Below, one piece after another: positions 9,041-60,640 of a stretch of DNA of 64,000 nt. Under the pieces are notes generated by a model. That model saw only the letters and a list, made by a program, of their open reading frames with translations. It did not search any database and was not told where the DNA came from. The DNA lies in contig OY740784.1 of assembly GCA_963514005.1 (NCBI GenBank), positions 86,056,001-86,120,000 on the forward strand. The letters run 5' to 3'. Position 1 is the first letter of the stretch. Every line of letters begins with the position of its first letter. The position numbers and the translations under genes are program-made. Source of the DNA: Raja brachyura (Eukaryota).

Positions 9041-9370
9041 TGCAGGAAGGAACTGCAGATGCTGGTTTACACCGAAGATAGACACAAAATGCGAAGTAAC
9101 TCAGCGGGACAGGCAGCATCTCTGGATAGAAGGAATTGGTGACGTTTCGGGTTGAGACGCTTCTTCAGACTGAGAGTCAGAGGAGAGGAATAGAGATATG
9201 GAAGGGTAAAGTGTAAAAAAGAGAAATCAAAGGGGACAAAGCTCAAGTAAAATGTACCATGGATCATTGTCACCTTCCCCTCGGCTAACAATGACGTCTA
9301 CAAGCAGCAAAATTTAATCAGGACAGTAAAACTAGCGGAGAACTAGGATGTGAGAGGGACCGCATGGGAG
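9041..9370 (-). mobile_element. Penelope-like element 3' end/pLTR with decayed hammerhead core
   Basis: Minus strand ctgaagaagcgtctcaacccgaaacgtc (9141-9168) preceded by a pyrimidine-rich UTR; same terminus as the other copies. Confidence 0.6.
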
Positions 9371-21749: not shown

Positions 21750-22455
21750 TTCTTAAGTGATAGGAGAAGAATTAGTTCATTCGGCCCATCAAGTCTACTA
21801 TGTCATTCAATCATGGCTGATCGGTCTTTCCTTCTCATCCCCATTCTGCTACCTTCTCCCCTGATACCCGTACTAATCAAGAATTAAATATATCCATTGA
21901 CTTGGCCTCCACAGCCTTCTGTGGCAATGAATTCCAGATTCACCACCCACTGACAAAAGAAATTCCCCCTCATTCTCTTCCTAAAGGAACAGCCTTTAAT
22001 TCTGAGGCTAGACTCTCTGGTCCTAGACTCTCCCCCCAGTGGAAACATCCTTTCCACATCCACTCTATCCAGGCCTACCACTGTTAAAATAGTTCCCAGT
22101 GCTGGGGGAGTCCAGAACCAGGGGTCAGTTCAAGAATAAGGGATAGGCCATTTAGGACTGTGATGAGGAAAAACGTTTTCACCCAGACAGTTGTGAATCT
22201 GTGGAATTCTCTGCCGCAGAAGGCAGTGGAGGCCAATTTGCTGGATGTTTTCAAGAGAGTTAGATTTAGCTCTTAGGGCTACGGGAATCAAGGGATATAG
22301 GGAAAAAGATGGAACGGGGTACTGATTTTGGATGATCAGCCATGATCATATTGAATGGCGGTGCTGGCTCGAAGGGTCGAGTGGCCTACTCCTGCGCCTA
22401 TTTTCTATGTTTGGTAAGTTACAATGAGGTTCTCCCCTCATCCTTCTAAAGTCCA
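21750..22455. mobile_element. Minus-strand CR1 3' end with a plus-strand CR1 3' end (about 22090-22410) nested in it
   Basis: Both carry CR1 3' motifs and tails; the host resumes at about 22412. Confidence 0.75.
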
Positions 22456-23511: not shown

Positions 23512-23701
23512 CTGTTTGCATCCTCATGCAACACCTGGTAGATGCCAATCTCGAACGTTTCATTTTCAAAGCGGCTTCTGACCCACTCCTTGTAAATGCG
23601 GAACTCTGAGGCTGTGACAGACTCCCCCTCTGGAATTTGGGACAGGTTAAATTTGTACTCTTTGTGGTGTGGCTGGTAGACAGTGTAGTCTTCTTGCTCA
23701 A
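23512..23701 (-). CDS. bmp7: BMP7-like coding exon 2 (190 bp, prodomain)
   Basis: Acceptor tcttttcctttgcag|TT; translates [64 protein letters not shown], in frame with exon 1; phase-2 donor AG|gttggt. Confidence 0.93.
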
Positions 23702-53984: not shown

Positions 53985-56190
53985 CATAGTAACATTGAAA
54001 AATAGGTGCAGGAGTAGGCCATTTGGCCCTTTGAGCCAGCACCGCCATTCAATATGATCATGGCTAATCATGTAAAATCAGTACCCCTTTCCTGTTTTTT
54101 CTCCATATCTCTCGATTCCTTTAGCCGCAAGAGCTAAATCTAACTCTCTCTTGAAAACATCCAGTGAATTGGCCTCCACTGCCTTCCATGGTGGAGAATT
54201 CCACAGATTCACAACTCTCTGGATGAAGAGGTTTTCCTCAGCTCAGTCCTTAATGGCCTACCCCTTATTCTTAAACTGTGACCTCTGATTCTGAACTCCC
54301 CCAATATCGGGAACATTTTTCCTGCAGTTATAGCAAGTGAAAATCTAGCAGGCAAGCAGGATGCGTTTTCCAACCGCCCCCCATTTGAAGTCCACTATCT
54401 TCCACCGTTTCCTGCATCTAGCCTGTCCAATCCTTTAAGAAATGTATTTGTGTCGATAAGATCCCTTCTCATCCTTCTAAATTCCAGTGAATTCAAGCCC
54501 AGTCGACCCATTCTTTCATCATATGTCAGTCCTGCCATCCTGAGAATTAACCTGGTGAAGTTACACTGCACTCGCTCAATAGCAATAATGTCTTTCCTCA
54601 AATTAGACCAAAATTGCACACAATACCCCAGGTGTAGTCTCACCAGGACCCAGCACAACTGCAGTAAGACGTCCTTGCTCCTAAACTCAAATCCTCAAAC
54701 AACGAAGGCCAACATGCCATTAGCTTTCTTCACTGCCTGTTGTACCTGCATGCTTACTCTCAGTGACTGATGTACAAGCACACCCAGGTCTCGTTGCACC
54801 TCCTCTTCTCCTAATCTGACAGTATTCAGATAATAATCTGCCTTCCTGTTCTTGCCAGCAAAGTGGATAACCTCACATTTATCCACATTATACTGCATCT
54901 GCCATGCATCTGCCCACTCACCCAACCTACCCAAGTCACACTGCAGCCTCACAGCATCCTCATCGCAGCTCACACCACCACCCAGCTTTGTGTCATCCGC
55001 AAACTTGCAGATGTCACATTTAATTCCGTCGGCTAATTCGTTAATATATATTGTAAATAACTGGGGTCCCAGCACAAGCCTTGCGGCAGCCCACTAGTCA
55101 CTGCAAGCAATTCTGAAAAAGACCCATTAATTCCTACTCTTTGCTTCCTGTCTTCAAACCAGTTCGCTATCCATGTCAAAACCCTACCCCCAATACCATG
55201 TGCTCTAATTTTGCCCACTAATCTGTTCAAGAAGGAACTGCAGATGCTGGAAAATCAAAGGTGGACAAAAATGCTGGAGAAACTCAGCAGGAAACTTAGT
55301 CTGAAGAAGGGTTTCAGCCCGAATGGTTGCCTATTTCCTTCGCTCCATAGATGCTGCCTCACCCGCTGAGCTTCTCCAGCATTTATGTCTACCTTTGCAC
55401 ACTAATCTCTTGTGTGGGACCTTGTCAAAGGATTTTTGAAAGTCCAGATACACCACATCCTCAAAAAATTCCAGAAGATTAATCAAGCATGATTTCCCTT
55501 TCGTAAATCCATGCTGACTTTGACCGATTCTGTCATTACTTTCCAAATGCGCTGCTATAACATCTTTAACAATTGACTCAAGCATCTTCCCCACTACCAC
55601 GTAAGGCTAACTGGTCTATAACTTCCCATTTTCTCTCCCCCTCCTTTCTTAAAAAGTGAGGTTACATTGTCAACCCTCCAGTCGACAGGAACTGATCCAG
55701 AGTCAGGCGAACATTGGAAAATGATCACCAATGCATCCACGATTTCTAGGGCCACCTCCTCGAGTACTCTGCGATGCGGACAATCAGGGGGGTTTATCTG
55801 CCTTCAATGCCAACAGTTTACCTGACAACATTTCCTGACTAATGTGGATCCCCTTCAGTTCCACCCTCCCACTAAATACACGGTCCCCTAGTATATCTGA
55901 GATTGGTTCTGCCCTCACTAAGGAAGGCACAAATACTCGTTGAACAGTTATGCCAGTTCCTTGTTTCCCCATTGTAAATTCACCTGATTCCGATTGCAAG
56001 GGACCTACATTTGGCTTCACTAACCTTTTCCTTTTAACATATCTAAAGAAGCTTTTAGAGTCAGTTTTTATATTCCCCGCAAGCTTTCTTTCATGGTCTT
56101 TTTTCCCCCCTCTTAATTAACCCCTTTGTCCTCCTCTGTTGAGTTCTAAATTTCTCCCAGTCCTCCGGTTTTGCTGCCTCCTCTGGCTTG
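53985..56190 (-). mobile_element. CR1 LINE (decayed RT) interrupted by a Penelope-derived element
   Basis: LGPQLFTIYINEL..KFADDTKL RT motif (ORF 54695-55075), QHGFTKGKSC, 3' tail. Confidence 0.9.
55225..55393. mobile_element. Palindromic Penelope-derived element inserted in CR1
   Basis: 15-bp TSD tttgc(c/a)cactaatct at 55210-55224 and 55394-55408. Confidence 0.8.
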
Positions 56191-57255: not shown

Positions 57256-57898
57256 AATTATTAAATATCAAGCCGCATTTCATTTAACATGTTCCCACTG
57301 ATAAAACGCCCTGTCAAAGTCAATGCAAAAAGAAAACACCATCCCGATACTACCTCCACCAGTCAGAACTGTTAACTACCTGTTCTCTTAACAGCCAATT
57401 CTGCACAATAAATGTATCTTGCTTTTGCACGCTCCAAGGCAAAACAGATGTTCTGAACTACGTGCTCACAAATCCTGCCTTTGGTTTAAGAGCCTTCTAA
57501 ACCCCGGAGTGTATTATTACCATATAATAGTCCCAGACATCTTGTTCACTACATCAGTATTCCCAGATGCTTATGTTTACTGCGGATTTATTTTTTTTAA
57601 ACAAGAACTACTCAGCAAGCATCCCAGTAGCCCATCACATTTACACAAGGTTTTGTACCAAAGTAATAGGATACAGACTCACACCAAGCCTATTTCAGCC
57701 AGTCAAAAGAAAATGCAAGAATCTTCTCTGCACAAAGAATAACTAGGACACCCAGAAGCACAAGATAAGCACACAGGTTATAGGAGAAAATTTAGGCCAT
57801 TCAGCCCATCTAGTCTACCCTGCATTTTACCATGCCAGATCTATCCTTCCTTCTCAACCCCATTCTCTTGCCTTCTCCCAATAACCCCTGACACCTGT

Positions 57899-58027
57899 GT
57901 TTAAGAAGGAACTGCAGATGCTGGAAAATCGAAGGTACACAAAAATGCTGGAGAAACTCAGCGGGTGCAGTAGCATCTATAGAGCGAATGAAATAGGCAA
58001 CGTTTCGGGCCGAAACCCTTCTTCAGT
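57899..58027 (-). mobile_element. Monomeric Penelope-derived element with the best-preserved hammerhead core
   Basis: 14-bp TSD cccctgacacctgt (57885-57898 / 58028-58041) inside a CR1 tail; minus strand CTGAAGA-A-GGGT-TTCG-GCCC-GAAA-CGTT at 57999-58026. Confidence 0.8.
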
Positions 58028-59107
58028 CCCCTGACACCTGTACTAATCAAGAATCTGTCAATTTCCATCTTAGAAATATCCACTGACGGCCTCCACAGCC
58101 TTCTGCGGCAATGAATTCCACAGATTCACCAGCCTCTGAATAAAGAAATGCTTCACCATCTCCTTTGTAAAGGCCTGATCAAACAAAAGATACATTTCCT
58201 GGGGATAGAATTGTTTGGAATTTGTTCCGTTGTGGCTATTAAATTAAGTGGAATTGGTTGCCATTGGGGCACCTTCAGTTGATCTAGATCTAGATCTGAA
58301 GACAACACAAGGAGCAGGCGACTGCACAATGGAGTTGCAGAGGAGGTTCACCAGGAAGGATGGTGCCTGGAATGGAAATTTTCCATTATGGACAGATGGA
58401 TTGAGTGGGTGAAGGCAGAGACTCTCATAACATTTACGAAGCATTCAAATTAGTACTTGAACTGCCTGGGCATAGAAAGCTTGAAATTAACTTCTAACCC
58501 TACATAACAAAGCCCAGTGAACGCCAGATTGGCCTCAAAAGACGTGGAAACTCTTGCTCTATGCAAGTGTAAGTAAAATACAAGTGGATACATATTTGCA
58601 GACACCTATCACTTCACTTTAACTCACAGGAAATCAAATCTTTAAAATTAAGTGGCAAACTGCATTAAATTGTGTAGATAAACTGATGTTCATCAAGTGA
58701 ACACGCATTCTGCAAAAACATAAATTTGGATTTTGCCAGAAAAATACAAAACTATTTCCTTTCCCTGTTCTTTCCAAAAAACACCACCATTAAGCAAGGA
58801 TGTTTTGACTGCAGAGTCTTACTATTTACCCAATTGGAACCCACTTTAACAGGCATCATTTGCCAGTAGTTTTTTAACATTCTTCCGCTTTGGAACACAG
58901 TAGCTGCCTCGGTAAAGTCTCCAAACATCAGCCAAGATTTATGGCAAATAAACAGATGAGTCAAAGAATCTGATGTCAATATTATGTCAGGAAGCCCCCA
59001 AGTCTGTTGCCACACAAACCGAAGGCGGCGAGAGGTGCAGAATGGTGGCCGGCGTTACAGAGGAGAACCGTCTCCTCAAATACTTAGAGATCTGACACTT
59101 TAAAATG

Positions 59108-59202
59108 TAAGATAAACATAAAAAGATGGAGTAACTCAGCGGGACAGGCAGCATCTCGGTAGAGGAGGAATGGATGACGTTTCGGGTCGGGACCCTTCTT
59201 CA
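59108..59202 (-). mobile_element. Short Penelope-derived element
   Basis: TSD tttaaaatg (59099-59107 / 59203-59211); core truncated at the C3 position. Confidence 0.7.
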
Positions 59203-60022: not shown

Positions 60023-60219
60023 AATCGTTTTTTTAAAACGAGCTCTTTGCTGTTGACCTATGGGTTTAAACCAGTGTGCGTTCGGGAGAGCGGTATACAT
60101 CTCTCTGTGTGTGCATGTGCGTTTAGTAAGTTGATGTATGCGTGAGTAATTGGTGTGCATTTGTGCAACGTACATGCGAACACTGGCTGTTGAGCCAAAT
60201 TTATAACGTTTCGGCTTAC

Positions 60220-60640
60220 CTAGGTTCACGAAACTCATGACCATATCTGCCTGGTTAAGGAAAGAGCTGTCCTGCAAGCTGGCCAGCGGCGGGCTCTGCG
60301 TGGTGAACACCGGTCTGTACTGATGCGAGAAGCCTTCCTCCTCCTCGCCTCCGGTGGACATGGCATTGTACAAGTCAAGCATGAAGAGGGGCGCCGAGTT
60401 ATGCTTCCCGTGCGAGTGAGGTCTGGGCCGGTGGGGTAGCCCCAGGATGGAGAGAATCTCCCGCTGCATGTTCTTCTTCTCGTGGTGTTTGAGGCGGCGG
60501 TGCACAAAGCTCGAGTGGAGCTCGCTGTGGCTGCCCGTGTCCAGCAGCAAGCTGCCCGCCACGGACAACCACTCGACCACCAGGCAACAGCTCCACAGTA
60601 GCCCGAGCGCGACTCCCCGCTCGACTGCAAATGCTCCCAT
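60220..60640 (-). CDS. bmp7: BMP7-like (BMP5/6/7/8 subfamily) coding exon 1: signal peptide and N-terminal prodomain
   Basis: ATG in acaATGG Kozak context; hydrophobic signal peptide; motifs [40 protein letters not shown] and [24 protein letters not shown] match the BMP7/BMP6 prodomain; phase-1 donor CTA G|gtaagc at 60220/60219. Exact paralogue (BMP7 vs BMP6 vs another) is uncertain. Confidence 0.93.

What the first reader, a model, noticed from the sequence alone, without database searches (positions are those of the whole stretch)
57899..58027. Minimal hammerhead-ribozyme core in a 129-bp retroposed unit, sense to the BMP pre-mRNA
Seen: the minus strand reads CUGAAGA-A-GGGU(UUCG)GCCC-GAAA-CGUU, which gives both conserved hammerhead boxes, a 4-bp helix II with a UUCG loop, an extra A after A9 and an NUH triplet. 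Helix III is reduced to the palindrome ACGU. The unit has an exact 14-bp TSD. Established: Penelope-like elements carry minimal type I hammerheads with a palindromic helix III that cleave as dimers. Inference: this is a non-autonomous ribozyme-bearing retroposon, transcribed in ribozyme sense within BMP intron 1. Helix I is weak (about 1-2 bp), so activity is uncertain.
Basis: partly seen in the sequence, partly recalled or inferred. Interest (0 to 1): 0.7.

Follow-up and report, generated by a model that had tools for sequence, protein, structure and literature searches.

The report
Penelope retrotransposon stub with hammerhead core
This 129-base insert is the cut-off end piece of a known kind of jumping gene (a Penelope-like element), one of about 145,000 such ribozyme-motif copies in this genome; it likely does not cut the BMP transcript, and its only notable trait is that its family's copies start at one fixed point that likely marks where the element's RNA begins.

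Summary
The motif, the 14-bp target-site duplication and the sense orientation in BMP intron 1 are real. The unit is the terminal ~130 nt (pseudo-LTR hammerhead plus optional ~35-nt tail) of a Neptune-type Penelope-like element. Near-identical ends sit behind RT/GIY-YIG ORFs, and a sister family has an intact 1221-aa element. The core pattern has 145,590 exact genomic matches against 547 controls. Minimal hammerheads in such elements are published (PMC4209133). This copy lost its native helix I 5' strand, has no intact sense partner in intron 1, and shows no two-sided helix II covariation in 160 copies, so cleavage of BMP pre-mRNA is unlikely. One extra: 37 of 86 copies start within 4 nt of the motif's 5' edge and only 1 at the predicted cut. 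The copied RNA was therefore uncut and probably began there, which would make these stubs run-off cDNAs from an internal RT start. A separate non-autonomous lineage is not shown but not excluded. This scan noted the same pile-up before, in this genome and others.

The parts
57885..57898 (.). Target-site duplication, left copy (14 bp); its last base also fits the family's terminal A (position +130)
   Evidence: site single in a host-repeat copy near 21858
57899..58027 (-). Penelope-like (Neptune-type) terminal stub, family positions +2 to +129; 3 substitutions from the subfamily majority plus a non-family A at 58027
57999..58026 (-). Minimal type I hammerhead core: CUGAAGA 58026-58020, extra A 58019, helix II 58018-58007, GAAA 58006-58003, CGUU 58002-57999; predicted cut between 57999 and 57998
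   Evidence: sequence; numbering by comparison with PMC4209133; cleavage untested
57899..57933 (-). Optional ~35-nt Penelope 'tail' between the two family 3' ends (about +92-96 and +128-131), present in this copy
   Evidence: matches the two RT start sites described in PMC11167929
58028..58041 (.). Target-site duplication, right copy; in the RNA it replaces the lost native helix I 5' strand
57765..58176 (.). Older dispersed host repeat into which the stub inserted (resembles a CR1/L2-type LINE end; name recalled, not tested)
   Evidence: both flanks match other window copies
60220..60640 (-). BMP-family exon 1 (coding part); intron 1 donor at 60219
23512..23701 (-). BMP-family exon 2

Best explanation
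The unit is the terminal ~130 bases of a Neptune-type Penelope-like retrotransposon, inserted with a 14-bp target-site duplication; it likely arose when the element's reverse transcriptase started inside the RNA at +130 and ran off the RNA's 5' end just before the hammerhead core, and this copy is likely inactive as a ribozyme. Shown: identity with the ends of ORF-bearing elements; in full-length elements the same unit lies about 35 nt before the ORF's first ATG; two fixed 3' ends; a sharp 5' pile-up at -4..+4; almost no 5' ends at the predicted cut. Inferred: the pile-up is a transcription start (the site reads TCAGTCT, matching the recalled initiator consensus YYANWYY); the template was uncut at the hammerhead; the short cDNA was joined to the target by microhomology. 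Confidence is about 0.95 for the identity, about 0.55 for the run-off step and about 0.85 for inactivity in the BMP intron.
For: Loci with 96-98% identity to the unit extend upstream into a GIY-YIG-coding ORF end (L004). Thirty long loci (L004 itself among them) carry RT/linker/GIY-YIG sequence ending ~100 nt before the core. L177, a sister family, is intact: hammerhead, 1221-aa ORF (RVT_1 E 7e-4, GIY-YIG E 2e-3, both under Pfam's cut-off), hammerhead, period 4037 bp, 13-bp TSD. 3' ends: 15 of 30 long loci stop at +92-97 and 15 at +125-128; none of 84 stops between +103 and +123. 5' ends: 37 of 86 at -4..+4, 1 of 86 at +28..+32, 20 of 86 beyond -100. Genome-wide, core plus 9 upstream bases gives 844 matches and core plus 9 downstream bases 3,454, although the upstream 9 are intact in 24 of 28 long copies against 19 of 28 downstream. 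Exact TSDs of 8 bp or more: 14 of 45 edge-starting copies, 1 of 39 others (p 5e-4), 8 of 416 shuffled controls. PMC11167929 shows internal RT initiation at two sites near the ORF start, on uncut RNA. Inactivity: helix I register probability <=0.005 and A.G at the closing pair; no second intact family core on the sense strand of intron 1; single minimal hammerheads gave no detectable cleavage in PMC4209133.
Against: No RNA 5' ends were seen; the transcription start rests on DNA ends and a recalled consensus. In D. virilis Penelope the start (nt 371) lies about 120 nt above the intron end (nt 491; PMC2377424), and the intron end is what maps to helix I (PMC4209133); here too the site follows a pyrimidine tract and CAG, like a splice acceptor. 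The share of short copies differs by subfamily (8 of 98 vs 32 of 79 keep upstream bases, p 4e-7), which could mean some stubs copy themselves. The -4..+4 bin was chosen after seeing the data. Long-copy 5' boundaries are less sure, which may lower their TSD count. The anole Poseidon hammerhead cleaves only with its protein bound (PMC11167929), so folding predictions may understate activity.
Confidence: 0.75

Rival explanations
1. The stubs are a self-propagating non-autonomous (SINE-like) family with an internal promoter, mobilised by the Penelope protein.
For: Fixed 5' and 3' ends and clean TSDs. About three quarters of intact-core copies lack the upstream bases. The focal subfamily is about 90% short against about 60% for its sister.
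Against: No replicated allele private to short copies: a loop variant that separated short from long in 63 copies did not replicate (4 of 56 vs 4 of 42, p 0.72). Divergence is equal. Stubs lack the ORF-start sequence downstream of the RT start that PMC11167929 found necessary. No shared foreign 5' flank was seen among 45 short copies (by eye).
Confidence: 0.15
2. The fixed 5' end is an RT stop or a splice-related boundary (3' splice site of a 5'-UTR intron, or a stall before the C-rich tract), not a transcription start.
For: Pyrimidine tract plus CAG directly before the core. The D. virilis intron ends at helix I (PMC4209133).
Against: A spliced template should leave a shared leader exon; the flanks differ copy by copy and the TSDs abut the edge. 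Several unrelated 3' UTRs converge on the same CAGT edge, so one stalling sequence is unlikely.
Confidence: 0.3
3. The hammerhead is active in BMP intron 1 and affects pre-mRNA processing.
For: All core nucleotides are intact and the orientation is sense. The host flank offers three pairs beyond an A.G mismatch.
Against: Native helix I strand lost; ACGU duplex only -1.7 kcal/mol; the nearest sense copy (59202) lacks C3; the fold is no better than shuffles (z 0.22); 38 of 63 relatives also have intact cores, so intactness reflects youth.
Confidence: 0.05

Closest known systems
Minimal type I hammerheads in pLTRs of metazoan Penelope-like elements (Cervera and De la Pena 2014, PMC4209133; parts 1-2 of 4 read)
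   Same: Both boxes, an extra base between 9 and 10.1, G10.1-C11.1, palindromic 15.2-16.2, mostly single dispersed copies; reported in fish Neptune and Poseidon elements.
   Different: Helix II is 4 bp and helix I 2 bp (4-5 bp in S. mansoni, 2 bp in D. virilis). There are 145,590 pattern matches here against about 4,000 (coelacanth) and 9,000 (Xenopus) reported with another descriptor. Sequence is very uniform.
Neptune-clade EN+ Penelope-like elements (Craig et al. 2021, PMC8557442; passages read)
   Same: RT, Zn-finger-like linker (CNRKRCYTC) and C-terminal GIY-YIG; partial tandems; inverted 5'-truncated copies; optional 30-40-bp tail.
   Different: Truncation is described as variable; here about half of the copies share one 5' end. 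Clade assignment rests on the linker motif, with no tree.
Anolis Poseidon PAc (Frangieh et al. 2024, PMC11167929; parts 1-2 of 4 read, supplements searched without hits)
   Same: Two internal RT start sites bounding the tail; hammerhead near the ORF start; uncut RNA as the insertion template; no reads at the cut.
   Different: Different clade; the ATG lies ~135 nt after the cut here, inside helix II there. A fixed 5' end of genomic stubs is not discussed in the parts read.
Non-LTR retrozymes (bioRxiv 10.64898/2026.07.22.740005; parts 1-3 of 5 read)
   Same: PLE-pLTR-derived, non-coding, type I hammerhead; 'monomers' are dispersed.
   Different: Defined as tandem repeats with at least two hammerhead units; this copy is single, TSD-flanked and ends at the PLE tail.

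Membership tests
EN+ Penelope-like element (Neptune type) | Parent ORF with RT and C-terminal GIY-YIG | tested here: met
   (Pfam hits below gathering cut-off; DKG, GVAMG, YIDD and LIYCIRC..YIGE motifs seen, motif names recalled)
EN+ Penelope-like element (Neptune type) | Zn-finger-like linker between RT and EN | tested here: met
   CNRKRCYTC in L004 and L177; criterion from PMC8557442
EN+ Penelope-like element (Neptune type) | Partial-tandem pLTRs carrying the hammerhead | tested here: met
   L177, L178, L179 have the unit at both ends; L168 has it before the ORF start
EN+ Penelope-like element (Neptune type) | Optional 30-40-bp tail | tested here: met
   bimodal 3' ends
EN+ Penelope-like element (Neptune type) | RT phylogeny places it in Neptune | not tested
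   no reference PLE proteins held; no tree built
Minimal type I hammerhead | Conserved core, extra base after A9, G10.1-C11.1, palindromic 15.2-16.2, NUH | tested here: met
Minimal type I hammerhead | Helix I closing the core | tested here: not met
   focal copy has A.G at 2.1/1.1; family context U.G and G-C only
Minimal type I hammerhead | Helix II covariation | tested here: inconclusive
   160 box-filtered copies: no recurrent two-sided change; closing pair U.G 92, U-A 57; H17 U 99, C 60, G 1. The recurrent changes are tolerated ones, but the sample is narrow and biased by my searches.
Minimal type I hammerhead | Self-cleavage (as dimer or protein-assisted) | not testable with these tools
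   needs bench assay; 1 of 86 5' ends at the cut
Non-LTR retrozyme | Tandem array of at least two hammerhead units | tested here: not met
   single unit between TSDs
Independent non-autonomous PLE derivative (SINE-like) | Own lineage, with alleles or transductions private to short copies | tested here: inconclusive
   no replicated private allele and equal divergence, but subfamily skew

The most novel reading that the evidence does not exclude
These stubs are the Penelope equivalent of retroviral strong-stop DNA. The RNA starts two bases before the hammerhead core, so its 5' hammerhead stays uncut; RT starts at +94 or +130 and runs off. Most such cDNAs insert as SINE-like stubs (on the order of 10^5 here). 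Long copies need a jump to the RNA's 3' end, where hammerhead cleavage would leave a ~30-nt terminal repeat. That would give the hammerhead a role and explain how pseudo-LTR tandems form; the swap of 3' UTR modules that ends at this edge would be its footprint.
Probability: 0.25. Interest if true: 0.65.

Novelty: new member of a known kind. Interest (0 to 1): 0.24.

Why it matters
As a single locus it matters little: it is a young, dead repeat in an intron. The family matters in two modest ways. It puts about 1.5 x 10^5 hammerhead cores into one vertebrate genome, so intact-looking intronic hammerheads here need no functional explanation. And its fixed 5' end, with the two fixed 3' ends, turns an open question (how Penelope-like elements copy themselves and what their hammerhead does) into direct tests with an intact element such as L177.

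Tried and rejected
Rfam: nothing at gathering score; two chance hits at E 3-8. RNA evidence: no RNA holder listed, all 24 runs kept as contigs; four runs laid on L168 show no places where molecules begin or end, and contigs cannot show starts. Loop variant UUUG as a marker of long copies: 12 of 18 long vs 9 of 45 short, but not replicated (ratios 0.28 vs 0.24; p 0.72 within the focal subfamily); rejected. Lower divergence of core positions in copies (14 of 604 vs 73 of 1688): not used, because end-trimming and subfamily variants bias it. A crossover exactly at the cut site in family L177-L179: cannot be placed finer than -3..+30. A divergent hammerhead family with another helix II: none evident among the first 100 of 4,704 matches with N7 = C/T. 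An upstream AUC as an alternative cut site: no room for helix I and no matching 15.2 base (reasoning). PDB search with BMP exon 1: no hit, so the paralogue is unnamed; BMP5/6/7/8-like is recalled. Literature: searches listed no paper whose title or abstract start describes this family or a fixed 5' end; Repbase/Dfam and most subscription papers were not searchable, and the bioRxiv retrozyme supplements (one chondrichthyan sampled) were closed.

Full report
Observation. The minus strand at 58026-57999 reads CUGAAGA-A-GGGU(UUCG)GCCC-GAAA-CGUU. The 14-mer CCCCTGACACCTGT occurs exactly twice in the window, at 57885 and 58028, and frames the 129-bp insert. Another copy of the host repeat carries the site once, so the duplication arose on insertion. 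A TGF-beta-propeptide gene runs on the minus strand, with intron 1 at 60219-23702; the motif is sense. Rfam does not detect it. Positions below count the T before CTGA as +1, so the predicted cut is +29/+30.

What it is. A genome search gave 2,118 candidates, of which 40 were scored, at 96-100% identity. Seven of the 30 fetched loci share 48-481 nt further upstream, and L004 holds a 317-aa frame ending in a GIY-YIG domain about 100 nt before the core. Searching with that end gave 30 long loci with RT motifs and a CNRKRCYTC linker, which is the Neptune/Nematis mark in PMC8557442 (passages). Walking 5' reached full-length elements. L177 has the unit, a 1221-aa frame with its first ATG about 35 nt after +130, and the unit again 4,037 bp on, within a 13-bp TSD. 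L177 is a sister family: about 87% identical over the ORF and 92% over the unit to the long copy L184, with a different 3' UTR. The focal unit differs from its subfamily majority at three internal bases and at +1. The core pattern has 145,590 exact matches against 547 controls, one per ~18.5 kb; about 60 of the first 100 are one older variant and 6 the focal variant (counted by eye).

Ends of copies. A 32-mer from the middle of the unit has 721 exact matches. I took 90 loci from the first 100 listed, leaving out 5 tandem near-duplicates, 1 second hit in one locus and 4 on contig 4. Four more were lost because my anchor was shifted one base, leaving 86; two of these aligned only upstream and were left out of the 3' and TSD counts. 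3' ends fall at +91-102 or +124-140, none between, and 15 of 30 long loci end at each. This is the optional tail that PMC11167929 ties to two internal RT start sites. 5' ends: 37 of 86 at -4..+4, 45 at -13..+4, 19 at +5..+60, 1 at +28..+32, 2 at -100..-14 and 20 beyond -100. Genome-wide counts agree: 844 matches with 9 upstream bases against 3,454 with 9 downstream bases, and 322 against 1,136 for a loop variant, while the upstream 9 are no more mutable in long copies (24 vs 19 of 28). Of 25 older-subfamily copies with a readable core (of 64 anchored), about 19 also start at this edge (by eye). Exact TSDs of 8 bp or more flank 14 of 45 edge copies, 1 of 39 others and 8 of 416 shuffled controls; 17 of 84 copies were flagged for an adjacent inverted copy.

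Mechanism. If cut RNA were the template, 5' ends would pile up at +30; they pile up about 30 nt earlier. The template was therefore uncut, as PMC11167929 found in vitro. In full-length elements the unit lies at the 5' end, just before the ORF start that the anole protein needs for initiation. The simplest reading (inferred) is a transcript starting at the A of TCAGTCT (initiator-like, consensus recalled), RT initiation at +94 or +130, run-off, and microhomology joining. The focal copy is such a product: +129 back to +2. Against this, D. virilis Penelope starts about 120 nt above the intron end that abuts its hammerhead (PMC2377424, parts 2-3 of 4; PMC4209133), and the site here also looks like a splice acceptor. 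However, no shared leader exon is seen and TSDs abut the edge. No usable RNA data were found.

Is it a non-autonomous family? Short and long copies are equally diverged (median 5.3%; 45 and 17 copies). The one allele that separated them did not replicate. But only 8 of 98 copies of the focal subfamily keep the upstream bases against 32 of 79 of the sister subfamily, so some independent copying of stubs is not excluded.

Ribozyme activity here. The native context gives a 2-bp helix I. This copy lost that strand and has A.G next to the core, then three chance pairs with the flank; pairing probability is at most 0.005 and the ACGU duplex is -1.7 kcal/mol. No second intact family core lies sense in intron 1: the copy at 59202 lacks C3, and the next intact sense core found is at 9168. 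In 160 box-filtered copies there is no recurrent two-sided helix II change; the recurrent differences are U.G/U-A at the closing pair, loop bases and U/C at H17, all tolerated. That fits past selection on master elements but is weak. In PMC4209133 single minimal hammerheads showed no cleavage and dimers little; in the retrozyme preprint 1 of 9 dimers cleaved.

Known versus new. Minimal hammerheads in fish Neptune pLTRs, truncated single copies, tails and occasional TSDs (PMC3846280, passages) are all published. PMC6155905 (passages) repeats the PLE link. The fixed 5' end was not seen in the titles, abstract starts or parts read, but Repbase/Dfam and closed supplements could hold it. I had reached that reading, which showed that earlier reports of this scan noted it in this and other skate-like genomes; those are unchecked notes, not independent support. 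No note lies near this window.

Verdict. A real but ordinary Penelope stub; new member of a known kind; interest 0.24. The strong-stop and strand-transfer reading has probability about 0.25 and interest 0.65 if true.

Noticed in passing
L177 (G000:C9:30326500-30334500, minus); also L178, L179, L181, L182: Young Neptune-type family (copies 97-99% alike over the 5' part compared) with an intact 1221-aa ORF in L177, a long Pro/Ala/Gly-rich N-terminal region, pLTRs at both ends and a 13-bp TSD; a candidate active element.
   Followed up: partly
L177 vs L184, 3' UTR: Sister families share the ORF and the sequence after the hammerhead but carry unrelated 3' UTR modules whose right boundary lies at -3..+30; several other 3' UTR types end in the same CAGT.
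   Followed up: partly
L020, just upstream of 1500: Tandem ~46-nt repeats of the hammerhead core alone, retrozyme-like and able in principle to dimerise. Two matches 42 bp apart at G000:C1:89464377 and 89464419 look similar.
   Followed up: no
window 55224-55395: Head-to-head pair of the same subfamily (inverted truncated copy plus stub), with a damaged core, antisense to BMP.
   Followed up: no
G000:C1:24180971, 55600006, 64073719: Three related matches of the form CTGAYGAT..CCGGA/CAGAGTCCAC..GGAAACG with a longer middle: possibly another hammerhead-bearing repeat family.
   Followed up: no
G000:C2:2737248-2813533: Six copies of the unit spaced about 15 kb apart: inside a large tandem duplication.
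   Followed up: no
L162/L163 (G000:C5:23.07 Mb): Two opposed ~650-bp pieces of the Penelope 5' region forming a long inverted repeat.
   Followed up: no
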